Of a stretch of 64,000 nt of DNA, positions 15,570 to 34,652 are shown piece by piece. Numbering within the stretch: the first letter of the stretch is position 1; every line of letters begins with the position of its first letter. The stretch covers positions 3,840,001 to 3,904,000 of the forward strand of contig CH464491.1 of the NCBI GenBank assembly GCA_000002445.1. Direction: 5' to 3'. The notes beneath the pieces are model-generated. The model did no database searches and was not told the DNA's origin. It saw only the letters and a list, made by a program, of their open reading frames with translations. Made by a program: the position numbers and the translations under genes. The DNA comes from Trypanosoma brucei (Eukaryota).

Positions 15570-17603
15570 CTAGCTGGTATCAGTGACTATTGGACGAGGA
15601 CCGAGGATCTGCTCAATGTCGGCTTTCGTTAGCTCCTTCTTTTCCAGTAAAAGTTTCGTAAGCTTTTCATGAAGCTCACGTTTCTCCAAGAGAACCTTCT
15701 CTGTATGTTTATAAGCCGAAGCGACGAGATGCCGCGCTTCCTCTTCCACTTTCGCATGTAGTTCTTCTGAAAAGTTCATCCAACCGCGGCCCTCATTTCT
15801 TTCGTTCGCTTTGAAGGCAAGCTGACCAATGGACTTAGACATTCCATAAAGAAGAAGCTTCTCCATGGCAATACGCGTCGCACGTTGGAGATCATCCATA
15901 GCACCTGTTGATATGTCCTTCATGAAAATACGCTCGGCCACACGACCGCCCATCAGCACACAAAGTTGAGAAAACAAAAAGGCATCTGTGCGAGGCTCCA
16001 TCGCTTCGTCCTGCATTTGTTGCGTGTATCCACCAGCTCTACCTCGAGGAATGATTGATATCTTTAAAACATCCTTCTGTAGTGGTGATGTCCACGCCAT
16101 AATCGCATGGCCAACTTCGTGGTAGGCGGTCCGTTCCAATGAGCTGTCACTCATACGCTGCCGGTGTTTTTTTCCGATGAGGACATCGTCGATGCTTTCC
16201 TGAAGGGTTTTCAACGGGACCACCTCACATTCCGCAACTGCAGAGGTGAGTGCAGCCTCGTTAACAATTGTAGCGATTTGAGCTGGCGATACACCGGGAG
16301 TGCGATCCGCAAGAGCTATGGCGTATTCTTTATTGCTCACCCCGGGAATCACTTTGACTTCGGGTGCCTCCTCCTCCGCGGTAAGCGAAGCTACTTTCTC
16401 TTTTCCATCGTTTGCCTTTGGGGAAGCTGCGGATTCTGTTTTAATGTTGTCCCCGTCTTCGCTTTCCTTACGAGTTCGGAAGCGCTGTATCTTTGGTTTA
16501 CACTCCGCGTCACCAGTTATGATGCGCTTCAAGTAGTATTCAAATAACTCAACTCGCGCCGATCTGTCAGGCATTGGGACATTCACCTTGCGATCAAAGC
16601 GACCCTCGCGTAGAAGAGCCTTGTCAATGACTTCGGGGTAGTTTGTCGCCGCAATAACTACAATTGCCTCCTTACTCGTCAAACCGTCCAACTCTGCAAG
16701 AAGTTGGTTAATAGTACGGTTTTCTTCACTACCTCCACCTCCCATACTCCGACCACTTTGGTTACGAGAGCCAATGGCGTCAATTTCGTCAATGAAAACA
16801 ATGCAGGGTGCAGCCTCTCGTGCTTGTGCAAAAAGTTCACGAACGCGCTTTGGTCCGCTTCCACCAAAAATTTCGATAAAGTCAGCCCCTGAGCAACTGA
16901 GAAAGGGCGCATTCGCCTCACCAGCAACGGCTCGGGCGAGTAATGTTTTTCCCGTACCGGGGCTTCCCGTTAGCAGGCACCCCTTTGGAAGCCGAGCGCC
17001 AAGCCTTGTAAATTTTTTTGGGTCCTTGATGAAGTCAACATATTGCTTCAAATCCTCTTTCGCCTCAGGAATGCCGATAATATCTGCGAAGGTGGTACCC
17101 TTCACATCAACACGAAAATTCTTTGGTTTCATGGGGTTCATCATTTCCATCAAATTCCCCATTCCAGGTTTCTTCCCTGCCCCACCAGCTGCGCCTTGGG
17201 CCATAGCCTGCGTGTATTTCCGTCGCACATACCACAATGGACCAACGAATATGGCAATATTAACAATCAGCGGTGCCACCCAACTGACTATATTACCGAC
17301 GACAGGTCCCGATGGTTTCACTACGCCGTCGTAAAATCCCTTGTAGTAATCACTGTCCTGCTGGGGAGAAATAAAAGGTGGTGGCTGGAGCGGAGCCCCT
17401 GGTGGATAATACGAATTATTTGGTTGGTTGTACGTTTGGCCACCATGCGGTTGGGTAAATGAGGTTTGAGGTGGTACATAATGTGCTGGTTGAGGAATTT
17501 GATGCTGTTGGGGCGAAAACCCCTGCGGCTGCGCGAAATGCTGCTGATGCATTTGTTCAAACAGCGACTGCCCACTGGGCGCACCACGCGGTTCTCCCTG
17601 CAT
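15570..17603 (-). CDS. ATP-dependent zinc metalloprotease FtsH family (i-AAA/YME1-like, single TM), 677 aa
   Basis: Walker A (GSPGTGKTLLARAVAGE), Walker B (IVFIDEIDA), the second region of homology and the HEVGH zinc site are all present. There is one predicted TM helix (IVSWVAPLIVNIAIFVGPLWYV) after a Q/P-rich 100-aa N-terminus. ATG verified at 17603. Confidence 0.9.
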   Translation of the reverse strand: MQGEPRGAPSGQSLFEQMHQQHFAQPQGFSPQQHQIPQPAHYVPPQTSFTQPHGGQTYNQPNNSYYPPGAPLQPPPFISPQQDSDYYKGFYDGVVKPSGPVVGNIVSWVAPLIVNIAIFVGPLWYVRRKYTQAMAQGAAGGAGKKPGMGNLMEMMNPMKPKNFRVDVKGTTFADIIGIPEAKEDLKQYVDFIKDPKKFTRLGARLPKGCLLTGSPGTGKTLLARAVAGEANAPFLSCSGADFIEIFGGSGPKRVRELFAQAREAAPCIVFIDEIDAIGSRNQSGRSMGGGGSEENRTINQLLAELDGLTSKEAIVVIAATNYPEVIDKALLREGRFDRKVNVPMPDRSARVELFEYYLKRIITGDAECKPKIQRFRTRKESEDGDNIKTESAASPKANDGKEKVASLTAEEEAPEVKVIPGVSNKEYAIALADRTPGVSPAQIATIVNEAALTSAVAECEVVPLKTLQESIDDVLIGKKHRQRMSDSSLERTAYHEVGHAIMAWTSPLQKDVLKISIIPRGRAGGYTQQMQDEAMEPRTDAFLFSQLCVLMGGRVAERIFMKDISTGAMDDLQRATRIAMEKLLLYGMSKSIGQLAFKANERNEGRGWMNFSEELHAKVEEEARHLVASAYKHTEKVLLEKRELHEKLTKLLLEKKELTKADIEQILGPRPIVTDTS

Positions 17604-18427: not shown

Positions 18428-19930
18428 TCAGCTAATAACCTCAACAGAAGAACATGATGACGTCCCCCCGTCTTCGACGACAATAATTGGGTCATTATCG
18501 CTCTCAATCGGATCGCTTTGACTTACAGATAATACGGCGCCCTCAGGCTGTGAACAGAGAGGTGTGGTTAATTGCCTGATATCTGGTGGGGACGCTAATG
18601 GATTGAGCCTGGAGAATAACTTCCTTTCACAGAACCTTAACCTCCTTAAACAAATGCCGCATCCTTGACTGCTATCACAGCATGCCGGTTCACCTGGAGT
18701 ATATACGCGGCACGTTACTCGATAATCACTAAAATCAACTGGTTTTAATAACGCCAGAGCCTCCCCTCCTCCGGCCGCTGCCCCATTGGGAGCACCACCG
18801 CACCACCGACTTGCAAGCGAGTTTCTACAGCGGCTGATGCTACCGGTGCTATCTGCAGTGGCACAACACCACATCATCGCCTCTTCACCGTATTCAACAC
18901 CTTCCGACTTAATGAGTCCATGGTTATTGTCGAAAAGAAATCGTGTCACTGGGCTCGATAGCATCCGCAGGATCTCCTCTTGCTCACGGCTACGCCGGGG
19001 GTCCATGTAAGGGTTCACAAACTTTGCAAAAAAGGGGAAACGTCGATTGTCGCAAATTGGTTTGGAGTTAGATATATCATACGGAAAAATCAGTGGCTCC
19101 ACGTTAATCCTTGAATAGTCGAACTCGCCAAACTTAAAGTCTTTTGTAAGTGACTTTGGTGGACCATCGCGGATCCACTCCACTACTTGGAGAAGTTTCG
19201 GGTGTGCCCATCTCCAAAACTCGTCACTGCGGTAAACTCGCCATGCAACAACTTGGCAAACTGGTTTATCCAGATAGACAAAGAAGTCGCATACATCCAC
19301 ATCGGCAATCGCCATCTGACCTTGCATTTGACAAAGGTACTGTTGAGGTATTCCAAAGGGGTGACATAAGCGTTTGGTGCTGTCGTATAATGCGTAATAG
19401 GGGGATTTGATTTCCAACAATCTTGCCAAGCGTTTCGATGTGGAAGCCGTGGGTGAATCGGGAGACGGTGTGGTGGCTAAAGAATCATCCCTTACACTCT
19501 TTGACCTGAACGGAATTCGGATAGATATTGGATTCTCTTGATGTTTCCCATTCTTTACACCCATCAACTTGGTTTCATTTCCCTTTCGCGATGGCGACAT
19601 TAACTGCGAAGATACCGGTGGCGCGTCCTCAAAGACACGTCCATCAGGAGAGCAACCAAGAAGCCTTCCTTCCAAAAGATAGAAGCCACCGTCACTAACA
19701 GCTGTAGAGGTTAATAATTCATACAGCGCACGCGACTTTGGCTCAGTGTTTATACCGTGATCAGTAATTGCGTTGCCTGTAAATTCCAACTCCGTGCCAA
19801 CGATATTTCGGACATAATCCACAAAGTGAACAATGTGTCCGCTAAGCCCGAGAGCCATGCCAAATTGCGATGCGGTGAGCCCAAAAGGCACCTCTTTTTT
19901 CCATTCTAGTTTCTTCCTGGGTTGGGCCAT
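18428..19930 (-). CDS. YqaJ/lambda-exonuclease-like PD-(D/E)XK nuclease domain protein with C-terminal Cys-rich region (500 aa)
   Basis: Motifs appear in canonical order: LTASQFGMALGLSG (motif I), GCSPDGRVF (catalytic D), LLEIKSP (E-x-K) and YLCQMQGQM (Q-rich motif). A low-complexity insertion of about 85 aa lies between the D and ExK motifs. The C-terminus has a CC...C...C...CC...C-x-C-x2-C cluster. The track ORF begins at a GTG at 19969. The first ATG is 19930 (MAQPRKK). Confidence 0.7.
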   Translation of the reverse strand: MAQPRKKLEWKKEVPFGLTASQFGMALGLSGHIVHFVDYVRNIVGTELEFTGNAITDHGINTEPKSRALYELLTSTAVSDGGFYLLEGRLLGCSPDGRVFEDAPPVSSQLMSPSRKGNETKLMGVKNGKHQENPISIRIPFRSKSVRDDSLATTPSPDSPTASTSKRLARLLEIKSPYYALYDSTKRLCHPFGIPQQYLCQMQGQMAIADVDVCDFFVYLDKPVCQVVAWRVYRSDEFWRWAHPKLLQVVEWIRDGPPKSLTKDFKFGEFDYSRINVEPLIFPYDISNSKPICDNRRFPFFAKFVNPYMDPRRSREQEEILRMLSSPVTRFLFDNNHGLIKSEGVEYGEEAMMWCCATADSTGSISRCRNSLASRWCGGAPNGAAAGGGEALALLKPVDFSDYRVTCRVYTPGEPACCDSSQGCGICLRRLRFCERKLFSRLNPLASPPDIRQLTTPLCSQPEGAVLSVSQSDPIESDNDPIIVVEDGGTSSCSSVEVIS

Positions 19931-20211
19931 TTGGTGTTCAGCTAACGCCGCCACTGGCACGTGTATCACAAAAAAGAAAAGAAAAGAAGATGCTGTTCAT
20001 TCAACAAACAACACCTTTGGCACCGAGCCTTAGGATAATACTGACCAATCACCATCAGAAAGGAAACTAATCACAACTGTAAGACGTGTTTACTAATAAA
20101 AGAGATTAATGGCCAAACGATAATCAGTAGACTGTTTTCCTCTTCAACTACTTCCGAACGCCTCCACGACTAATCGTTGTAAAACCGTAATTAAAGACTA
20201 GACACGCCACA

Positions 20212-20237
<26 letters not shown>
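20212..20237. repeat. (AT)13 microsatellite
   Basis: Direct read. Confidence 0.95.
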
Positions 20238-20242
<5 letters not shown>

Positions 20243-21208
20243 TACGAATAAGTAGTATAAATATATATTGTGTGGAATATGTGTAACATTTTCCCCTAAA
20301 CGGTTGCACGGTATCGTTGGCGCGTCATCAAAATGAAATATTCCGCTCTGGCAGTACACGGCATTGCCTTTTTTTGTTATGTTTCCACAGATACAAACAT
20401 GAGCATGTGTCGTCATTAATTCCTCCTCAACTAAACTATGGAGTAACACATTGTTTTGAACATAATAACAGTAGGAGGAGGAAGTAGGAGGAGAACCAAA
20501 ACTACGGATGCAAATATATATATATATAATAAAAGATGTATGAGAAAATAAACACTAAAAGAATAATTTTTTTTTAAAAAAAAGAAGAAAAGGAAGAGGA
20601 AAAAAGACATAATGAGAGGATGGGCTCCGAATTGGAGTGGCATATTGAGATAGATGATGAAAAACATGAGGACAACAGCCTCTACAAGGATTGGAAAAGG
20701 AAACAAAAAAGAAAAAAAGAAACAACAACAACAACAGCGACGCCAAAAGGGGGAAAAAAAAATGATATAGTAACGGAGAGAAGGGAATGGAAAGTGAACC
20801 ATTCCATAAGGTAGTGCAAAGTCGTTGTGAAAAAATACAAAAGGTTAAGAGGGAGGGGAGAAGAAAAAAAAGAGAGAGAAAACAACAACAACTACCGACC
20901 TTCACCCGTGCCGTCTGAAGTACAAGATTAAACCAATCAAAAAGAAAAAAAGAGGGATTGTCGGGTCTCCACAAAGTGGAAAAGACAAACTTTTATTCTC
21001 CTGCGTATATTTATTTTTTTTTCGGAATATTTTCAGTATTCGTCTTTTTTTTTTTCGTTTACCCCCAAAAAATTTTTTTCCTTTTATTCTTTTCTTTACC
21101 TGCTTCATTCCTATCCTCCTAATTTGATCAAAAGATGTCCCTTTAGATCACCTTTTTTTTGTTTTCTTTTGCATATGTATGTAAATAAATATATTTAAAT
21201 AAATATAA

Positions 21209-21230
21209 ATATATATATATATATATATAT
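21209..21230. repeat. (AT)11 microsatellite embedded in AT-rich AAATA-repeat context
   Basis: Direct read. Confidence 0.9.
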
Positions 21231-23224
21231 CATTTGTCTTTCATTTCCATTACTTCTTTTTTCTTTTTTTATAAAAAAAAGGGGGTTGCGTCACTGCTCC
21301 ATTTCTTCACGTTCTTGCGGTCCTCCTCTTGAGGTGATACGAAATAAAAAAGAGTTCATATCTGAAGGAGGAATTGCTGCGTGGACAATCAAATGAAGAA
21401 AATACGGGGAATCCACACGATACGCAGAAATGACAAAAAATGAATTAAAAAAAAAAAAGAAAACACTCCAACACTACAAAAAGTGAAGAAAGTTAAAAAA
21501 ATGATAAAAAAAACAACAAAAACTCCCACATGTTCACATCAGGCCGCAGAAATTCGAGTCGAGTTCAGTTAACTGTAGTCGAATATGTGTCTGTATGTCT
21601 GTAAATATGTCTGTAAGTATGCTGTTCTTTTTTTTTCCTCTTTGGGATTCCGTTGTGCCTTATTCGGATATCATGAATCCAACACATTCCGTCACTACTC
21701 CACTCCTTTAGAATCAAGTGGCGGTCAAAATAAATTATTTATATATTATAATAATTATTATTATTAAAGAAAAAAAGGAGGAGTTGAGGAATGACACGAG
21801 AGTAAAGAAACGGAAAACATGAAATAATGACGCCGTTTTTCCCCCCCCCCCCATCAGATGTGTGACTGATGCACTCCCGTATTGACCTCAAACAGAAGAA
21901 GTGGAGGAAAAGAGAAGAGGGGAGAAAAGAAAAAAAGATCAAAAATCAAAAAACAAAAGGAAAAGGAAATGAAAATAGAAATGGGAAAAGAAGAAGAAAG
22001 GAAAGGGAATAGTGTAAAGGGTGCTTCACGCGCACTCTTTTGCGATCCTTTCCTTTCCTTTACTTTTTCTTTTCCCATTTCTTTTTTCTTCTATGCGACA
22101 AACAGCAATGAATTTATAAATTATAGGCTGCTCTGTTATAAAATGGTGGGAATGAAGGGGGAGTGGGGGAAAAAAAAAGAACCGATAGAAAGTGGAGGGT
22201 AAAAGGGTTTTAAAAAAAAAAATGTGGCCATAATAAATACAGAGGGAAGAGAAGGGTAAAAATGTAATAAATAAGTAAAATATTTTTATTAAAAAAAAGC
22301 CAAAGCAAAACAAACCATAAAGAAACTAACAGAAAAGAAAAGAACAAAAGAATGACATATACCGAAATAAGTCTAAAGGAAAATGAAATCAAAATAGAAA
22401 AAAAAACAAAAAAATTTTTTTTGAAAAAAAAATTACTGGCCACAATTCAAAATTTTTTTTTCTTTTTTGTTTACCCCCCCCCACTTCTTTGGCACCTTCA
22501 TGACTCTATCGAAACCTTGTGAGCAGAAATTCTCACATTTTTTGTTTTATTTTCCTTCTCTAAACGTGCGGAAGATGTGAGTGAAAGGAGTAACGAAGAG
22601 GGTGGACGGAAGTTTCTTATTATTGTTATTACAACTTTCCTCTCCTATTTTTAAGGTATTTTTTTTTTAATAATCTCATTTTCTTTAAAAATAAAAAAAA
22701 ATCGATTACCACCGCATTTGCTTTCATCATGTTTCTGTCTTTGTTTCTTTTACTTTTTTATTTGCGTATGAGAGTATGCATGTATTATTTTCTCCTCTAT
22801 CATATTTTTCTTCTTTCTTTCTTTGCTTTAGTTTTGGTTCTATGGTAATTCCGTTTTCGCTCGACTCACTTTAAGTCCCTGTTTCCCTTACCCTCCGGCA
22901 ACTTGGAGGGGAACGAAGCAAGAAACATAAAACCAATTATTTGATATTTATTTGTTCCGTCTCCATACGCACCCCCCTCTGCTCCACATTCTAACCGCTA
23001 TCGTTGTCTATTTATTTATTTTTGTTTTTTTTGTTTTTCATTAATCATCATTCACTCTTTTATCCATTCAATGTTGTTTTCTTGGAGGGAGGAAAGGTAG
23101 AAAGAAGGAAAGAAGGAGGGAAATTTTTACTTGTTTTTTTTTCCTCTTTTTTGTCAAGTAAACTCCAACGCCACCAGTCAGCAGCGTGAGAATGTGAGTA
23201 AAACACTGTTGAATTGTTGCGACC

Positions 23225-24343
23225 TTATTTGTACGTTGGAGGGCGGAGGCCACTCTTCTGGTACTGCGTTTTCTCCTCCCGTGACATGGCTCCAGCTGGA
23301 ACAACATTCTTCACGGAATTGTTCACGTTCTGAAGCCATATGCGGACACCGAAGATGCGGAACAACTCACTGTTCAGCTGCCGGAAATCAATAGAGCGGG
23401 ATGCCTCGTAGTAGAAACTGATCTTCTGTTGATCGAATTGATACTCGCAATCAACGACATCCATGTCGAGCCCAAGGCGCGCTACAATCTCGCGGCATGT
23501 CTTTAAGGCCAGATTCTCATTGCGCGAGATCTCCCCGAAAAGGCGCTCCACTTCCTCCTCCGTTGCCACGCGCAATACTCGACCCATTTCACCCTTCATC
23601 CGCACCACATTCGTCACATTGCCGTCAAAACTCTCTTCACGGACGATGCAGCCCTTCTCAGCATTCCATTCACTGCATTGGTTGACAACACCACAATCGT
23701 GGCCGCGGTCTCCCTGTACAATAGCGTACTGTCCGGGTGTGATGAAGGAACTGCTCACGCACCGCTTCATGCGTTGGCATTTGAATTCGACCAACAAAAT
23801 GAAGCAGTCGTGTCTCTTCCAGCTGTTGTGATCATCTCCACGAGTGGCACTCGAGGACTGTGGGTTTGATAGGGCCCTCTTGTTATCGGTAGCTTTTATG
23901 TGCTCCTCCTCCTTGTCCCTTGTGGAAACCATCGGAGTCGTAACGGTGTCTATCGTCCCACTGGTAAGTGGATCATGGGTAGGAGATTCAAAGAACTGAG
24001 GGGCAGAGTGCGTAGCGTGTGGCATGGCACTACTCAGCATCGAAACAAAGTTGGGCTCCTCTTCAGGAAAGGCGGGATGCACAGCTTCGATTGTTGAGGT
24101 TTGTGATGTAGAGGTTAGTAACTCAGGTGCGGTGGGTAATTGCCTTTGCTGAACCAGGTGCAGCATAAGTCCATAAATAGCATCCACTTTACGGGAGAGT
24201 TGGTCCAACTTTTCTGCGATGCCTTCATCAGTAGTAAATACCGGTGCCGTCATTCGCGCCGCTACCTCCATGTCAGATTCATGCATGTGATGAGGATGCA
24301 CCTGACGCTTGCTTTGGGTCACGTTAGTCAGATCGTGGAACAT
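23225..24343 (-). CDS. PSP1 C-terminal domain-containing protein (372 aa)
   Basis: The C-terminal half (QYAIVQGDRGHDCGVV...VATEEEVERL...CREIVARLGLDMDVVDCEYQFDQQKISFYYEASRSIDFRQL) matches the PSP1-C conserved region. The first ATG is 24343 (MFHDLTNV). The track N-terminus runs through a (TAA)n/(TTA)n stretch and is spurious. Confidence 0.65.
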   Translation of the reverse strand: MFHDLTNVTQSKRQVHPHHMHESDMEVAARMTAPVFTTDEGIAEKLDQLSRKVDAIYGLMLHLVQQRQLPTAPELLTSTSQTSTIEAVHPAFPEEEPNFVSMLSSAMPHATHSAPQFFESPTHDPLTSGTIDTVTTPMVSTRDKEEEHIKATDNKRALSNPQSSSATRGDDHNSWKRHDCFILLVEFKCQRMKRCVSSSFITPGQYAIVQGDRGHDCGVVNQCSEWNAEKGCIVREESFDGNVTNVVRMKGEMGRVLRVATEEEVERLFGEISRNENLALKTCREIVARLGLDMDVVDCEYQFDQQKISFYYEASRSIDFRQLNSELFRIFGVRIWLQNVNNSVKNVVPAGAMSREEKTQYQKSGLRPPTYK

Positions 24344-30352: not shown

Positions 30353-31582
30353 TCACATATGCGATGCCGAATGGAGAGAGTAATTCATGGATGCCACAAA
30401 GATCTGAAAATCGCCAAACGCCTCAATCTTTAGGTCACCATAAGGGACGAGAAAACATTCACCCAAACGCACTCTTTCCCCGTTTACAATGCCACATCCT
30501 TCCACGCAAAATCCCAACCCAACCGTTGGAAGTTTTATGTGTGTTTGTCCCTGCCTTTCCACACGATGTTCAATGCGGTAAAGAGAAAAGTCTTGAAACT
30601 CTCTGGGTGGGGAATAATGTTGCAATTCCCATTCTGATCCCTCGGGGGCTCGATAGCGCTCGAATTTTGCACGCTCAAGACCATCAGTGCCGTAACGCAA
30701 CATCCTCAACAGGGTGGGCACATCTTTCCATTTTGGAGTGAGCCCCGCCCGCACAACATTATCGCTGCATGCCATTATTTCAACACTATCTCCAAACAGA
30801 TAGGCATGAGGCTCACTGTCAGCCAAAAAAAGACCCTCACCTGGTGCTAATTGCACATAGTTGAGGAAGTACACCATCCAACAACCCATATCGTCGGGAT
30901 ATTGATAAAGGACACGTAAGAAAACACTATCTTCTTTAGTCATTTCTCCACCCCTACTTCGCAGCTCCTCCGCATGTTCTTGTAGTGCCTCTGCATGCTT
31001 CTTTGCATCGGTATTGTAAACAATATCCATCATATGTTTGATCGCTTCACTATCTTCGACCTCTCCGGGTAGCACATCGGCAGCGGGCCCCAAAAGAGTT
31101 TTCAACGGGGACGCGGATTCCAAGAACTCGAGAATGTCTTTTAACGGGCGAAAGCAACACAGTGCTTCGAAAGGCGTCAGTGCCACCACTAACTCTGGTT
31201 TATGGTTGGGGTCTTTGTATTTCTCGGGATTCTCCCTGTGGAGTTTCTCCGCCAATTGTTTGTTTGGGTGTGCTTGAATAGACAAAGCCGTTTGCACTGA
31301 CAGTAACTTGAGTAGGAATGGCACAGTATCACGGAAACGTGGATCTGCTTGCTGTTTGGGATGGACAAATCGTGACATGTTGTTGTCATTCTTTAGAAAG
31401 TCATCCAAATTTTGTCCAGAAAACGTTTTCGATGGGCAATTTGGGTGCGTTCCAACCCAAAGTTCCGCATACTTACCCTCCTTATTTCCCTCACCTTTCA
31501 TTTTAGCGACATAACTCTCCGCGGCTTCCTTTCCCCACGCATAGTGTTGGACGCCACAATCCAATTTAATTAACTTCGACAT
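30353..31582 (-). CDS. PMI: mannose-6-phosphate isomerase, type I (phosphomannose isomerase), 409 aa
   Basis: The N-terminus LDCGVQHYAWGK, the metal-binding QAHP region (SIQAHPNKQLAEKLH), the YKDPNHKPE motif and an overall length of about 410 aa are diagnostic of class-I PMI. ATG verified at 31582. Confidence 0.9.
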   Translation of the reverse strand: MSKLIKLDCGVQHYAWGKEAAESYVAKMKGEGNKEGKYAELWVGTHPNCPSKTFSGQNLDDFLKNDNNMSRFVHPKQQADPRFRDTVPFLLKLLSVQTALSIQAHPNKQLAEKLHRENPEKYKDPNHKPELVVALTPFEALCCFRPLKDILEFLESASPLKTLLGPAADVLPGEVEDSEAIKHMMDIVYNTDAKKHAEALQEHAEELRSRGGEMTKEDSVFLRVLYQYPDDMGCWMVYFLNYVQLAPGEGLFLADSEPHAYLFGDSVEIMACSDNVVRAGLTPKWKDVPTLLRMLRYGTDGLERAKFERYRAPEGSEWELQHYSPPREFQDFSLYRIEHRVERQGQTHIKLPTVGLGFCVEGCGIVNGERVRLGECFLVPYGDLKIEAFGDFQIFVASMNYSLHSASHM

Positions 31583-32192: not shown

Positions 32193-34652
32193 TCACTTGT
32201 GGTGTTTCCACGTCGCACAGTACAGTGCAAGCTCCAAGACGGATGGGTTAGACGCCGAAAGGGCTTTGCCATTATTAACCATGCGTTGTAATTCTTTCCA
32301 CTTCTTCCACTTTGTCTCAGCCTCCGCAACGTTGGGAAGTGACGAGGAGAAATGCAGTGCCCCGGGATGAACAGTTACCATACGGGGGGAGACATTTATC
32401 ATGCGCAATTGAGAGAACTTCTTCACGCGACTCGCAGCAACATAAATGATATGGTTACAGGGAAAGAACCCCTTGCAGTCTAGCAGTATAGAATGATCCA
32501 GAGTGAGTCCTTGCGTCTTGTGTACAGTAAATGCATAGGCAGGTACGAGGGGCATTGTGACGACACGTGCAGTACAAAACACTCGGTCTTGCAGATCCGG
32601 TAGCGGAAGGGATAACCAAGGTATAGCCACATCCTTTCCGTCAGCGTCCATCCGCACAATGGGAACAATAACGTCGTCATAGTTGACAACGTCAAGCGCC
32701 TGTTCCTTCCCATTGCCGCCGTATGAATTTTCTGATGACCCGGCCGAACTGTCACTACTAACCACTGGTCTCCGTGAAAGAGAGGCGTACACTTTCCGCG
32801 AAAGTTGGGTTCTGATACCTTTGGGAAATAAATGCCGAGATTTATTTACAGGTTGAAAGCCGATGACGGTACCGGTAGAGCCGTTAACGTACTCATTGCT
32901 TAAGTTTCGCAGTAGTATTACCCTACAACCGACCTTTAGTCTCTTGCTTTGGAGTACATTATCACTCTCTATCACCTTCGAGTATGCCTGCTTCAGGGAG
33001 GCGCGCAGAAAAGTACTGAGGGAGTTCTTATGTTTCACTTCAAACAGCACCCTACCAAAAAACCTTCGAGCGGATTTACTTTCGGGCGTGGTACCGTAAT
33101 AACTACGCTCCCATTCTGCTTTCATTTTAGCCACTGGATAGAGACAATCGTACTGCTTACTCACACAAAAGTGTACGTAGACTTTCAGATAGGGTTGTCT
33201 TGAACTATAAGGAGGTGCTACTACAGAAGTGGCTATACCGGAGATGCCACACCGCGTGCATATCTGTCCCACAAACTTCTTCACTTCCCGTTGCCATCTT
33301 CGGGAGGACCTCATCTTCTCTAGGAAGTGCAACACCACCACATCATTACAACCGTCGACGTTGTTTGCTCCTCGACTGTTCGGCGATGCATGACCTTTGG
33401 GGCCGGAAAGACCGGCTGACTCAACTATACTCCGAAATAGATGTTCCTCCCCGTCAAGTTCAAGCATTTTACTTTCATTAAACGCCGCCACAGATCGGCG
33501 GGTGGGATAGAGTTGGATGGCGTTAGGATCTTCCGGATTAACCAACGCAGACCGCATCATGCGACGAGTGAGAACACCTTGACGGAGCTTGTTGAGGTCA
33601 TTCAGAAATGCGGTGTCACCATGCCGCTTAACTTCGCAAAGTTGAAGGTGAAGCAAACAGGTTAAGAAGAGAGGGCTCTCGAAGATTAGACCACTGCTTG
33701 TCCGCTGACGCTCACCTACACAAATATTTTTCACCGCCGACATAATATGTCCCTGGTCTGTGACAGCAGCTGTAGAGCTTACGTCGCTTCTATTTTGTCC
33801 TGCTGTATTCTCGGTGGTTTCGTCCCCTCGGTAACCAATTTTGTTGCCTGCATCACCACCGCCATCTTGAGAAGTACAATTCTCAGTGCTATGCATTAGT
33901 TGCATGAAGTCTCCGCATAATATAACTTGAATGCCACCAAATGGAAGGTGAGGTATCCTTCCAGGTGCCCCGCGGGCGGCAATATCCAGCCCCTCCAAAT
34001 GTCTAGCGTGTAAAAGCGATACTTCATCCACAACAATAACGTCCACTTTGGCAAGAAGACTCTTGCTGTAGCGAAGGATCGAGACGGCACATGATTCGTT
34101 TGTCTCACTGTTACCAACGGAGGTAACTCGTACTCCAAATGTGCTGTGAAAAGTGCTTCCCCCAATGTTGAGTGCAGCTATTCCGGTAGATGCCGTTACG
34201 ACAACGTCAAGGTCCTTCGCCCTTAACGCTGTCACAATACTCTGGATCATATATGACTTACCGACACCAGCACCACCACCAATGAAAAGCGGAGCTCCAT
34301 CAAGGACAAGTGTGAGAGCCCTCCGCTTCTCCTCATTGAGACCGAGTGACGAAAAAGCTGACTCATCACCGCTTGATTTTTCCTTTTCCTGAAGCCCCAG
34401 GTCGTTGTGGCCAGCGCTAGACGCCTGCCGACAGGTCTTCGTGTCTCTTTCCTTGATTTCGTTGACTTCTGCAGCCCCACAACAGGAAGTACTCTCCGGT
34501 GCAGGGGAAAGCTGCCCCCCTTTTTCACCTTCTGCAGCAACGGTCCAAGCAGAAACACCTTTCGCAAGGCGGGATTGCCGTCCTTCTCGCCCCGGTGCAA
34601 AAAGCAGTCTTCCATACGTTAGCAATAGAGTCCTGGTGGAGTTGAGGAGCAT
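32193..34652 (-). CDS. PIF1-family 5'-3' DNA helicase (819 aa) with lineage-specific insertions
   Basis: Walker A (FIGGGAGVGKSY), ASTGIAALNIGGSTFHS, the DEVSLL motif and the PIF1 signature region are present. A C-terminal FTVHKTQGLTLD motif is also present. ATG verified at 34652. Confidence 0.85.
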   Translation of the reverse strand: MLLNSTRTLLLTYGRLLFAPGREGRQSRLAKGVSAWTVAAEGEKGGQLSPAPESTSCCGAAEVNEIKERDTKTCRQASSAGHNDLGLQEKEKSSGDESAFSSLGLNEEKRRALTLVLDGAPLFIGGGAGVGKSYMIQSIVTALRAKDLDVVVTASTGIAALNIGGSTFHSTFGVRVTSVGNSETNESCAVSILRYSKSLLAKVDVIVVDEVSLLHARHLEGLDIAARGAPGRIPHLPFGGIQVILCGDFMQLMHSTENCTSQDGGGDAGNKIGYRGDETTENTAGQNRSDVSSTAAVTDQGHIMSAVKNICVGERQRTSSGLIFESPLFLTCLLHLQLCEVKRHGDTAFLNDLNKLRQGVLTRRMMRSALVNPEDPNAIQLYPTRRSVAAFNESKMLELDGEEHLFRSIVESAGLSGPKGHASPNSRGANNVDGCNDVVVLHFLEKMRSSRRWQREVKKFVGQICTRCGISGIATSVVAPPYSSRQPYLKVYVHFCVSKQYDCLYPVAKMKAEWERSYYGTTPESKSARRFFGRVLFEVKHKNSLSTFLRASLKQAYSKVIESDNVLQSKRLKVGCRVILLRNLSNEYVNGSTGTVIGFQPVNKSRHLFPKGIRTQLSRKVYASLSRRPVVSSDSSAGSSENSYGGNGKEQALDVVNYDDVIVPIVRMDADGKDVAIPWLSLPLPDLQDRVFCTARVVTMPLVPAYAFTVHKTQGLTLDHSILLDCKGFFPCNHIIYVAASRVKKFSQLRMINVSPRMVTVHPGALHFSSSLPNVAEAETKWKKWKELQRMVNNGKALSASNPSVLELALYCATWKHHK

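What the first reader, a model, noticed from the sequence alone, without database searches (positions are those of the whole stretch)
18428..19969. Viral-type YqaJ/lambda-exonuclease nuclease with intact active site, a long insertion and a Cys-rich tail
The protein carries the full PD-(D/E)XK lambda-exo/YqaJ motif set in canonical order: T-A-S-Q-F, SPDG, LLEIKSP and QMQGQM. These define the 5'-3' recombination exonucleases of phages (RecE, lambda Red-alpha, YqaJ) and herpesvirus alkaline nuclease. Two non-canonical additions are present. One is a low-complexity S/P-rich loop of about 85 aa inserted between the catalytic Asp and the E-x-K motif, which normally lie about 15-20 residues apart. 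The other is a C-terminal Cys cluster of about 180 aa (CC...C...C...CC...CGIC) that looks like a zinc-binding module. This fold is sporadic in eukaryotes. In a kinetoplastid it could be a nuclear or kinetoplast DNA end-resection or recombination enzyme (kDNA minicircle or VSG-recombination context), or an ancient viral acquisition. Of the genes here, this is the one I would most like to see characterised.
Basis: partly seen in the sequence, partly recalled or inferred. Interest (0 to 1): 0.7.

Follow-up and report, generated by a model that had tools for sequence, protein, structure and literature searches.

The report
Trypanosome lambda-exonuclease-like nuclease, uncharacterised
This Trypanosoma brucei gene (Tb927.11.14740) encodes a lambda-exonuclease/YqaJ-type nuclease with an intact active site and a floppy inserted loop, but the cysteine-rich tail is not a conserved zinc module, databases already carry the domain annotation, and where the enzyme acts is still unknown.

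Summary
The ORF is real: minus strand, 18428-19969, with the likely CDS at 18428-19930 (500 aa). It is Tb927.11.14740, already named "YqaJ-like viral recombinase domain protein" in public databases.

**Insertion.** It is real but smaller than stated. There are 72 residues between SPDG and RLLEIK (Asp-to-Glu spacing 77, against a median of 12 in relatives). It is predicted disordered and varies in length (spacing 25-216). It carries a conserved peptide, S-[VF]-[RK]-[VI]-P-F, followed by basic residues.

**Cys tail.** It is not a conserved zinc module. Only C407 is widely conserved, and CCx5Cx2C is shared only with T. congolense.

**New points.**
- The family lacks the arginine that holds the DNA 5'-phosphate in lambda exonuclease (Arg-28). 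That position is Arg in 58 of 61 outgroup relatives.
- The gene is syntenic in Leishmania.
- The next-best relatives are diplonemid proteins.
- Spatial proteomics detects the protein but places it in neither nucleus nor mitochondrion.

Function is inferred, not shown.

The parts
18428..19930 (-). Probable CDS of Tb927.11.14740 (500 aa plus stop).
   Evidence: ORF. 100% identity to the 500-aa database protein P0001. Gene ID from neighbour mapping and literature.
19954..19990 (-). Polypyrimidine tract (19990-19970) and first downstream AG (19955-19954): putative trans-splice acceptor, giving a short 5'UTR.
   Evidence: Sequence read. Interpretation from the general trypanosome trans-splicing rule (inference).
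19610..19930 (-). N-terminal half of the nuclease core (residues 1-107). It includes the W10...TAS(19-21) motif and the SPDG catalytic Asp96 (19640-19651).
   Evidence: Pfam YqaJ match over residues 23-224 of the 513-aa ORF. Model pLDDT 86-97. D96, S21 and W10 invariant in 29 of 29.
19424..19639 (-). Insertion between SPDG and RLLEIK (residues 98-169, 72 aa). Disordered, length-variable and moderately S/P-rich.
   Evidence: pLDDT below 50 for residues 108-162. Asp-to-Glu spacing 77 here, 25-216 across the family, median 12 in outgroup relatives.
19499..19525 (-). Conserved short peptide inside the insertion: S136-I-R-I-P-F-R-S-K144. Family consensus is S-[VF]-[RK]-[VI]-P-F followed by a basic cluster.
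   Evidence: Found in 36 family representatives: Pro in 35 of 36, Phe in 36 of 36, preceding Ser in 30. No match to the core pattern in the family representatives with the shortest loops (spacing 25-44).
19400..19420 (-). LLEIKSP: the catalytic Glu173-x-Lys175 strand.
   Evidence: E173 in 28 of 29, K175 in 29 of 29, R170 in 29 of 29. Lies in model strand 167-175.
19313..19330 (-). QMQGQM helix motif (Q201, Q203, G204, Q205).
   Evidence: Invariant in 29 of 29. Aligns with QMQTQMA of LHK-Exo and QVQTQL of mimivirus R354.
18926..19312 (-). Rest of the core plus a family-specific conserved extension (residues 207-335): FWxWAxPKLLQVxxWxxDGPP...FxFxxFDF...VxPLVFP...RRFPFF.
   Evidence: pLDDT 94-99. 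Many invariant columns up to F301. Diplonemid homologues match the family profile up to position 316.
18581..18883 (-). C-terminal beta-rich region (residues 350-450) of unknown fold. Holds most of the T. brucei-specific cysteines, including CCx5Cx2C (417-427, window 18650-18682).
   Evidence: Mixed model confidence, 39-93 per 10-residue block. Weak but alignable conservation. Cys conservation table. No Pfam or PDB match.
18431..18568 (-). Disordered acidic/Ser-rich tail (residues 455-500) with two hydrophobic motifs: IIVVED (482-487, window 18470-18487) and SSVEVIS (494-500, window 18431-18451).
   Evidence: pLDDT below 50. Both motifs conserved in T. congolense, T. vivax, T. theileri, T. grayi and T. 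melophagium. The SUMO-interaction reading is my inference only.

Best explanation
Tb927.11.14740 is a cellular, single-copy, vertically inherited nuclease of the lambda-exonuclease/YqaJ branch of the PD-(D/E)XK superfamily. It is found across kinetoplastids and has more distant counterparts in diplonemids.

**Shown.** It has the fold and the complete metal-binding and catalytic set (Asp96, Glu173, Lys175, QxQGQ helix). These are conserved in 28-29 of 29 aligned orthologues.

**Inferred.** It is an active Mg2+-dependent nuclease that, like its relatives, most likely trims DNA ends in the 5'-to-3' direction.

It differs from the phage enzymes in three ways that probably change how it engages substrate and how it is controlled.
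1. The arginine that grips the terminal 5'-phosphate in lambda exonuclease (Arg-28, the processivity 'ratchet') is not conserved. Strict 5'-phosphate-driven processive digestion is therefore unlikely.
2. The hairpin between the catalytic Asp strand and the ExK strand carries a disordered, length-variable insertion. It displays one conserved peptide (S-[VF]-[RK]-[VI]-P-F plus basic residues). I read this as a docking or targeting peptide, or alternatively a DNA-contacting wedge or basic patch next to the active site.
3. A conserved extension and a C-terminal region of unknown fold follow the core.

The Cys-rich patch is a T. brucei/T. congolense peculiarity, not a family zinc module. The pathway and compartment are not established. 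My leaning is processing of DNA ends or recombination intermediates in a regulated, partner-dependent manner.
For: - **HMM match.** Pfam PF09588 at 67.7 bits, E=1.8e-18. All orthologues carry the same domain.
- **Catalytic residues.** Invariant or near-invariant.
- **Arg loss.** W+4 is Arg in 58 of 61 outgroup relatives but H, V, F, T or I in the family. In the pairwise alignment V14 aligns with Arg of R354. The role of Arg-28 is described in PMC11611040.
- **Loop.** Disorder; length range and conserved peptide.
- **Cys.** Non-conservation.
- **Cellular, vertical inheritance.** The same downstream neighbour (AAA/M41 protease) is present in L. major chromosome 32. All large ORFs of the window lie on one strand, as in a polycistron. 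The kinetoplastid clade has 100/100 NJ bootstrap support and kinetoplastid+diplonemid 60/100. No close viral donor turned up among 1.84 billion representatives.
- **Expression.** Translated, with higher translation efficiency in bloodstream forms (PMC4210626). Detected as protein in both life stages (PMC10361982).
Against: - No biochemical or genetic data exist for this protein in the searched literature.
- The DNA 5'-3' exonuclease assignment is by homology only. Some family relatives also cut RNA or act as endonucleases.
- Loss of the Arg-28 equivalent could mean a different substrate altogether.
- I could not inspect model coordinates, so active-site geometry rests on fold superposition and motif alignment.
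- hyperLOPIT does not place the protein in the nucleus. The nearest classes are 'microtubule structures 1' in bloodstream forms and 'cytosol' in procyclic forms, and the final call is 'unknown'. This weakens a simple nuclear-repair picture.
- The role of the conserved loop peptide is unassigned. It matches no docking motif I could name, and the PP1 RVxF rule excludes Pro at that position.
Confidence: 0.6

Rival explanations
1. It is a kinetoplast or mitochondrial genome-maintenance nuclease. It would work at or near the kDNA (minicircle or maxicircle 5'-end, flap or primer processing), functionally like MGME1 or EXO5/DEM1.
For: - The subfamily is confined to kinetoplastids, with diplonemids as the next relatives. 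Both lineages have highly unusual mitochondrial genomes.
- In one bloodstream-form hyperLOPIT iteration the protein fell in 'microtubule structures 1'. That class holds basal-body-proximal proteins and, in bloodstream forms, some proteins of the tripartite attachment complex that links the basal body to kDNA.
Against: - There is no N-terminal extension. Residue 1 onwards is the conserved start of the fold (MAQHPxKLxWK), with acidic residues and model pLDDT 86-97.
- It is not classified to any mitochondrial class in either life stage, whereas its neighbour Tb927.11.14730 is 'mitochondrion - IM' with p~1 in the same tables.
- Diplonemid homologues end in KRRR-type nuclear-localisation-like peptides.
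- It is structurally much closer to lambda exonuclease than to MGME1 or EXO5.
Confidence: 0.15
2. It acts on RNA rather than DNA, for example in mRNA or 5'-end processing or decay. Precedents are the herpesvirus SOX/BGLF5 alkaline nucleases and the DXO/Rai1 PD-(D/E)XK enzymes.
For: - The conserved DNA 5'-phosphate-binding Arg is lost.
- The nearest hyperLOPIT class in procyclic forms is cytosol.
- Two orthologues are labelled 'oligoribonuclease' in NCBI.
Against: - The top fold and sequence matches are all DNA exonucleases.
- No RNA-binding domain was detected.
- The 'oligoribonuclease' label has no supporting domain hit and looks like annotation carry-over.
- The protein is not in the ribonucleoprotein classes of hyperLOPIT.
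Confidence: 0.1
3. It is a recent viral or transposon remnant (a giant-virus insertion, or the YqaJ gene of an ISL2EU-type transposon) with no host function.
For: YqaJ genes are common in giant viruses, including Bodo saltans virus, which infects a kinetoplastid. They also occur in ISL2EU transposons of eukaryotes (PMC4482050, listed).
Against: - Single cluster per species. It is syntenic between T. brucei and L. major and embedded in a housekeeping polycistron with no transposase or viral genes nearby.
- Catalytic residues are invariant across deep kinetoplastid divergence.
- It is translated and detected as protein.
- The Bodo saltans virus protein is only 19% identical in the structural match.
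- No non-euglenozoan hit scores better than 1e-24.
Confidence: 0.03
4. The Cys-rich tail is a zinc- or iron-sulfur-binding module needed for function, by analogy with Cas4, AddB, EXO5 and Dna2.
Against: - The knot is absent from T. vivax, T. cruzi, T. rangeli, T. theileri, T. grayi, Leishmania and basal kinetoplastids.
- Model confidence there is only about 65.
- There is no Pfam or PDB match.
- The Fe-S nucleases place their cysteines around the nuclease core, not in a distal tail. The core cysteines conserved here (C93, C200, C214, C225) do not form that pattern.
Confidence: 0.07

Closest known systems
Lambda exonuclease (Red-alpha) and bacterial LHK-Exo (PDB 3slp, 3syy); Pfam PF09588 YqaJ
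   Different: - Asp-to-Glu spacing is 77 against about 10-16.
- The Arg-28 equivalent is not conserved.
- About 275 extra C-terminal residues.
- No annealase partner gene nearby.
- Eukaryotic cellular gene.
- Oligomeric state and activity untested.
Mimivirus R354 (MIMIVIRE Cas4-like nuclease; PDB 5yet/5yeu) and giant-virus YqaJ-like recombinases
   Different: R354 keeps the Arg at W+4 and has a short hairpin (Asp-to-Glu about 20). Identity is only about 20%. The family-specific extension, loop peptide and C-terminal region are absent.
Uncharacterised ~290-aa eukaryote-type YqaJ proteins (sea star Patiria, oysters Saccostrea, choanoflagellates Hartaetosiga and Choanoeca, malawimonad Gefionella)
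   Same: Next-closest sequences after diplonemids (E 1e-24 to 1e-14). They share the ...GIPxxYxxQxQGQ... and CDF motifs and the FW-helix after the core.
   Different: They are single-domain, keep the Arg at W+4, have short hairpins, and lack the loop peptide and C-terminal region. They too are functionally uncharacterised, as far as I could find.
Herpesvirus alkaline nuclease (UL12/BGLF5; PF01771) and mitochondrial MGME1 and EXO5
   Different: No HMM match to those families, and much lower structural similarity than to lambda exonuclease. No Fe-S cysteine set as in EXO5. No mitochondrial presequence or mitochondrial proteomic assignment.

Membership tests
YqaJ / lambda-exonuclease family (Pfam PF09588, PD-(D/E)XK superfamily) | Significant profile-HMM match above the curated threshold | tested here: met
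   67.7 bits against a cut-off of 22, E=1.8e-18, profile positions 2-149 of 150. All orthologues tested also match. NCBIfam TIGR03033 scores only 35.1 against a cut-off of 68.
YqaJ / lambda-exonuclease family (Pfam PF09588, PD-(D/E)XK superfamily) | Catalytic D...ExK triad plus the QxQ helix, conserved among orthologues | tested here: met
   D96 in 29/29, E173 in 28/29, K175 in 29/29, and Q201, Q203 and Q205 in 29/29.
YqaJ / lambda-exonuclease family (Pfam PF09588, PD-(D/E)XK superfamily) | Lambda-exonuclease three-dimensional fold | tested here: met
YqaJ / lambda-exonuclease family (Pfam PF09588, PD-(D/E)XK superfamily) | Arginine that binds the terminal 5'-phosphate (lambda Arg-28, at W+4 before the TAS motif) | tested here: not met
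   This is a mechanistic feature of lambda exonuclease, not a Pfam membership criterion. The position is V14 in T. brucei and H, V, F, T or I across the family. It is Arg in 58 of 61 outgroup relatives and in R354. The role of Arg-28 is described in PMC11611040. The lambda numbering alignment comes from my knowledge of the lambda sequence.
YqaJ / lambda-exonuclease family (Pfam PF09588, PD-(D/E)XK superfamily) | Toroidal homo-oligomer and processive 5'-3' dsDNA exonuclease activity | not testable with these tools
   No multimer prediction or biochemistry available.
Phage exonuclease-annealase (Red-alpha/beta-type) two-component recombinase | Adjacent or co-encoded single-strand annealing protein | tested here: not met
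   Annotated neighbours are an AAA/M41 protease, PSP1-domain protein, CLU, phosphomannose isomerase, PIF1 helicase and MIP-T3. Several neighbouring ORFs have no Pfam match. No annealase domain was found, and none was flagged among the L. major neighbours, one of which has no Pfam hit.
Fe-S cluster PD-(D/E)XK nucleases (Cas4, AddB, EXO5, Dna2 type) | Four conserved cysteines bracketing the nuclease core | tested here: not met
Zinc-finger or zinc-ribbon module in the C-terminal tail | Ligand set (Cys/His) conserved among orthologues, or a match to a known zinc-binding domain | tested here: not met
   C417, C418, C424 and C427 are shared only with T. congolense. C356, C434 and C493 are conserved in none of the 28 other aligned orthologues. 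No Pfam hit. No PDB hit with a profile of the C-terminal region.
Herpesvirus alkaline nuclease (PF01771) | Profile-HMM match to PF01771 | tested here: not met
Transposon-borne YqaJ (ISL2EU) or endogenous giant-virus element | Multi-copy, or flanked by transposase or viral genes; not syntenic between species | tested here: not met
   One cluster per species. Housekeeping neighbours. The YqaJ-to-M41-protease gene order is kept in L. major.
Mitochondrial genome-maintenance exonucleases (MGME1, EXO5/DEM1), by function | Mitochondrial targeting and localisation | tested here: not met
   No N-terminal extension. hyperLOPIT gives no mitochondrial class in either bloodstream or procyclic forms. One-iteration proximity to a basal-body/TAC-containing class keeps a kDNA-proximal role open.

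The most novel reading that the evidence does not exclude
A Euglenozoa-specific offshoot of the lambda-exonuclease family has been rebuilt from a processive phage 'ratchet' enzyme into a regulated, partner-recruited end-processing nuclease. It gave up the 5'-phosphate-gripping arginine. It also gained a conserved docking or DNA-wedge peptide on a flexible tether right beside the active site.

In trypanosomatids it could be the unidentified nuclease of the RAD51-independent microhomology/single-strand-annealing repair route, with relevance to VSG gene conversion or Leishmania gene amplification. Trypanosomatids lack classical end-joining and RAD52 (my background knowledge). Alternatively it could act at a basal-body-linked kDNA site.
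Probability: 0.15. Interest if true: 0.7.

Novelty: new variant of a known kind. Interest (0 to 1): 0.4.

Why it matters
Trypanosomatids repair DNA breaks without classical end-joining and rely on recombination for antigenic variation and gene amplification, yet the nucleases involved are only partly known (background knowledge).

This is a conserved, expressed nuclease with an intact lambda-exonuclease-type active site, and no functional study of it turned up in the searched literature. That makes it a concrete and easily testable candidate. Its departures from the phage enzymes (lost 5'-phosphate arginine, tethered conserved peptide at the active-site hairpin) give specific mutants to make.

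The value is tempered.

Tried and rejected
1. **C-terminal fold.** I modelled the region after the nuclease core using a basal orthologue (P0036 residues 222-707, 16-sequence alignment). The model failed (pLDDT 42, pTM 0.25), so no fold search was run on it. A profile of the same region found nothing in the PDB, and Pfam found nothing in ten long orthologues.
2. **AlphaFold-database fold search.** The library was not available.
3. **Literature.** Searches combining YqaJ or 'viral recombinase' with trypanosomatid terms gave only giant-virus phylogeny papers with no statement on this gene. One search was wasted by a loose term setting.
4. **Supplement look-ups.** The gene was not found in the held text (some files are truncated) of the nuclear proteome, the DNA-damage phosphoproteome, TrypTag or the MMS RNAi screen. 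Absence there is not informative.
5. **Phylogeny.** A first NJ bootstrap used capped Kimura distances and included fragments. It gave poor support: 40%, 40% and 0.5%. An even earlier run was invalid because of numerical errors. I therefore treat only the cleaned 94-sequence analysis as usable, and only as moderate evidence.
6. **Loop peptide.** I compared it from memory with known docking motifs: PP1 RVxF, PCNA PIP/APIM, MLH1 MIP box, Ku-binding motif, BRCT pSxxF, cyclin RxL and ABBA. None fits.
7. **Flanking DNA.** Rfam and tandem-repeat scans around the gene showed only AT-rich microsatellites.
Full report
**Observation.** The minus strand carries an uninterrupted ORF at 18428..19969 (513 aa from an in-frame GTG).
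- The public protein is 500 aa, starts at the ATG at 19930, and is 100% identical (P0001).
- The GTG directly follows a 21-nt polypyrimidine tract (19990-19970) and lies upstream of the first AG (19955-19954). By the usual trypanosome trans-splicing rule, ATG 19930 is therefore the likely start (sequence; inference).

**Locus identity.** Every ORF of 250 aa or more in the window is on the minus strand, as expected for a kinetoplastid polycistron.
- Neighbours are an AAA/M41 protease (15570-17603), a PSP1-domain protein, CLU, phosphomannose isomerase (30353-31582), a PIF1-like helicase and MIP-T3.
- TbPMI is Tb927.11.14780, and Tb927.11.14730 is a mitochondrial protein.
- Tb927.11.14740 is listed as 'Recombinase-like domain protein' in a ribosome-profiling paper.
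- The hyperLOPIT classes of the neighbours (14730 mitochondrial inner membrane, 14780 glycosome in one of the two 33-plex tables) fit the order of genes in the window.
- The gene is therefore Tb927.11.14740.

**Family membership.**
- Pfam PF09588 (YqaJ) matches at 67.7 bits (cut-off 22), E=1.8e-18, over nearly the whole profile.
- The closest solved structures by sequence are mimivirus R354 and LHK-Exo.
- An AlphaFold2 model built on 29 orthologues has mean pLDDT 77 and pTM 0.76. Residues 1-107 and 163-335 are above 90.
- In the viral structure library the best matches are giant-virus and phage YqaJ proteins.
- Phage exonucleases are 31-36% identical over the core of a short-loop orthologue.
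- Across 29 kinetoplastid sequences, D96, K175, Q201, Q203, G204 and Q205 are invariant and E173 is present in 28.

**The insertion.**
- There are 72 residues between SPDG and RLLEIK, and the Asp-to-Glu spacing is 77. In 74 non-family relatives the median spacing is 12 (IQR 10-16). The insertion is thus about 60-65 residues, not 85.
- In the model it is an extruded, low-confidence loop (residues 108-162 below 50) between two confident strands.
- Its length is very variable: spacing is 64-79 in Trypanosoma, 107-150 in Leishmania-like sequences, up to 216 elsewhere, and only 25-44 in several basal family members.
- It is not featureless. It holds a short conserved peptide, S-[VF]-[RK]-[VI]-P-F, usually followed by a basic run (K-S-K-R-R-x-R-S-P in the Leishmania group). 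This peptide is present in 36 family representatives and missing from the members with the shortest loops (spacing 25-44). In T. brucei it is S136-IRIPFRSK-144.
- A conserved peptide on variable tethers next to the active site suggests a docking or targeting peptide, or a DNA-contacting wedge and basic patch. I could not assign it to a known motif.

**The Cys-rich tail.**
- The enrichment is real in T. brucei, with 12 Cys in the last 180 residues, but it is not conserved.
- C407 is conserved in 18 of 28 other sequences, and C355 is conserved within Trypanosoma. The CCx5Cx2C knot (417-427) is shared only with T. congolense. The other tail cysteines are each shared by at most 3 of the 28.
- No Pfam or PDB match exists for this region.
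- A family-wide zinc module is not supported. A lineage-specific metal knot in T. brucei and T. congolense cannot be excluded.

**Other conserved anatomy.**
- After the Pfam domain comes a strongly conserved, confidently modelled extension up to about residue 335.
- A beta-rich region of unknown fold follows (350-450).
- The tail is disordered (455-500). Its two hydrophobic, acidic/Ser-flanked motifs (IIVVED, SSVEVIS) recur in six Trypanosoma species. They resemble SUMO-interaction motifs, but that is only my reading.
- Leishmania and several basal kinetoplastid orthologues have a further 250-300 residue C-terminal region that Trypanosoma lacks. I could not model or identify it.

**A lost arginine.** In lambda exonuclease, Arg-28 binds the terminal 5'-phosphate and underlies the 'electrostatic ratchet' for processivity (PMC11611040).
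- By my knowledge of the lambda sequence, Arg-28 sits four residues after the conserved Trp that precedes the TAS motif.
- In 61 non-family relatives with that motif the position is Arg in 58 and Lys in 2. In R354 it is Arg and aligns with T. brucei V14.
- In the kinetoplastid family it is His, Val, Phe, Thr or Ile, followed by a conserved Pro. Most of the diplonemid homologues examined (5 of 6) also lack the Trp...Arg motif.
- This suggests that end recognition differs from the phage enzymes (inference).

**Distribution and origin.**
- A profile search of 1.84 billion representatives found about 30 family members at E<1e-70, then a gap. The scores and shared architecture of these members mark them as kinetoplastid-type.
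- Diplonemid proteins come next (Lacrimia, Diplonema, Rhynchopus; 1e-34 to 1e-21).
- After them come ~290-aa proteins from animals, choanoflagellates and a malawimonad, plus environmental 'phage-type endonucleases'.
- Diplonemid proteins share part of the post-core extension. They have a different N-terminal region and KRRR-type C-termini.
- A neighbour-joining tree of 94 well-covered sequences gives 100/100 for the kinetoplastid clade, 95/100 for diplonemids and 60/100 for the two together. An earlier, cruder bootstrap was poor, so deep relationships are only moderately supported.
- The YqaJ-to-M41-protease gene order is the same in L. major chromosome 32.
- This is an old cellular gene. If it was ever of viral origin, the transfer predates kinetoplastid diversification.

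**Experimental record.**
- I found no functional study.
- Ribosome profiling lists the gene among those with higher translation efficiency in bloodstream forms without an mRNA change (values 1.70 and 2.08).
- hyperLOPIT detects the protein in bloodstream and procyclic forms but leaves it 'unknown' in both. The nearest classes are 'microtubule structures 1' and 'cytosol'. One bloodstream iteration assigned it to 'microtubule structures 1', a class of basal-body-proximal structures that also captures some tripartite-attachment-complex proteins.
- It is in neither the nuclear nor the mitochondrial classes.

**Mechanism and rivals.**
- Best supported: an active Mg2+-dependent nuclease of lambda-exonuclease type, most likely working on DNA 5' ends. 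It has altered end recognition and a tethered regulatory or substrate-contact peptide. Pathway and compartment are open.
- Rivals: a kDNA-proximal maintenance nuclease (0.15), an RNA-directed nuclease (0.10), a functional metal-binding tail (0.07) and a recent viral or transposon remnant (0.03). The evidence for each is listed in the corresponding fields.

**Novelty.** The domain call itself is already in NCBI and UniProt names. The following are not described in anything I could find:
- the family-wide loss of the 5'-phosphate arginine;
- the conserved loop peptide;
- the euglenozoan distribution;
- the non-conservation of the Cys patch.

I rate it a new variant of a known kind, of moderate interest. 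It is a well-defined, untested candidate nuclease rather than a surprise.

Noticed in passing
window 18431-18487 (-), residues 482-500: Two hydrophobic motifs flanked by acidic/Ser residues (IIVVED, SSVEVIS) sit at the extreme C-terminus. They are conserved in T. congolense, T. vivax, T. theileri, T. grayi and T. melophagium but missing from the shorter T. cruzi, T. rangeli and T. conorhini models. They resemble tandem SUMO-interaction motifs (my reading only).
   Followed up: partly
Orthologues P0017-P0024, P0027 (Leishmania and relatives) and P0010, P0033, P0035, P0036, P0039, P0040; alignment A1 columns ~1120-1400: Leishmania and several basal kinetoplastid orthologues carry an extra 250-300 residue C-terminal region (LLxxIRxAxDCxGVVLVS ... 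CFVV) that all Trypanosoma proteins lack. It has no Pfam or PDB match, and the AlphaFold model failed (pLDDT 42).
   Followed up: partly
P0055-P0058, P0061, P0065 (diplonemids): Diplonemid homologues place the nuclease after an unrelated ~250-residue N-terminal region. They end in KRRR/KRKRK peptides that look like nuclear localisation signals.
   Followed up: no
window 32193-34652 (-): A PIF1-like helicase gene (PF05970, E=4e-32) lies five genes upstream of the nuclease in the same polycistron. Proximity in a kinetoplastid polycistron does not imply a shared function.
   Followed up: no
window 15570-17603 (-): The downstream neighbour is an AAA/M41 (FtsH-type) protease with a long Q/P-rich N-terminal region. 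It is Tb927.11.14730, used in the literature as an ATOM69-dependent mitochondrial import substrate and classed as mitochondrial inner membrane by hyperLOPIT.
   Followed up: partly
window 19970-23225: A 3.2-kb gap separates the nuclease gene from the upstream PSP1-domain gene. GC drops to 0.34, and there are (AT)13 at 20212-20237 and AT-rich repeats at 21173-21230. There is no Rfam match and no convincing ORF. It is probably the long 3'UTR or intergenic region of the upstream gene.
   Followed up: yes
P0003 (T. conorhini), P0006 (T. rangeli): These orthologues are named 'oligoribonuclease' in NCBI and UniProt, although the only domain found is YqaJ. This is probably an annotation error that could mislead automated transfers.
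   Followed up: partly
P0064, P0066, P0073, P0082, P0206/P0207: A set of ~290-aa single-domain YqaJ proteins occurs in a sea star, oysters, choanoflagellates and a malawimonad. They share the GIPxxYxxQxQGQ signature with the kinetoplastid family and appear uncharacterised. Whether they are cellular genes or come from viruses or transposons was not examined.
   Followed up: no
P0054 (295 aa, on a 764-kb environmental contig): This is the best non-kinetoplastid-family hit (E=9e-38). It also has an S/P-rich insertion at the same hairpin but lacks the conserved loop peptide. The gene model breaks off after the QxQ motif. Its source organism is unknown.
   Followed up: no
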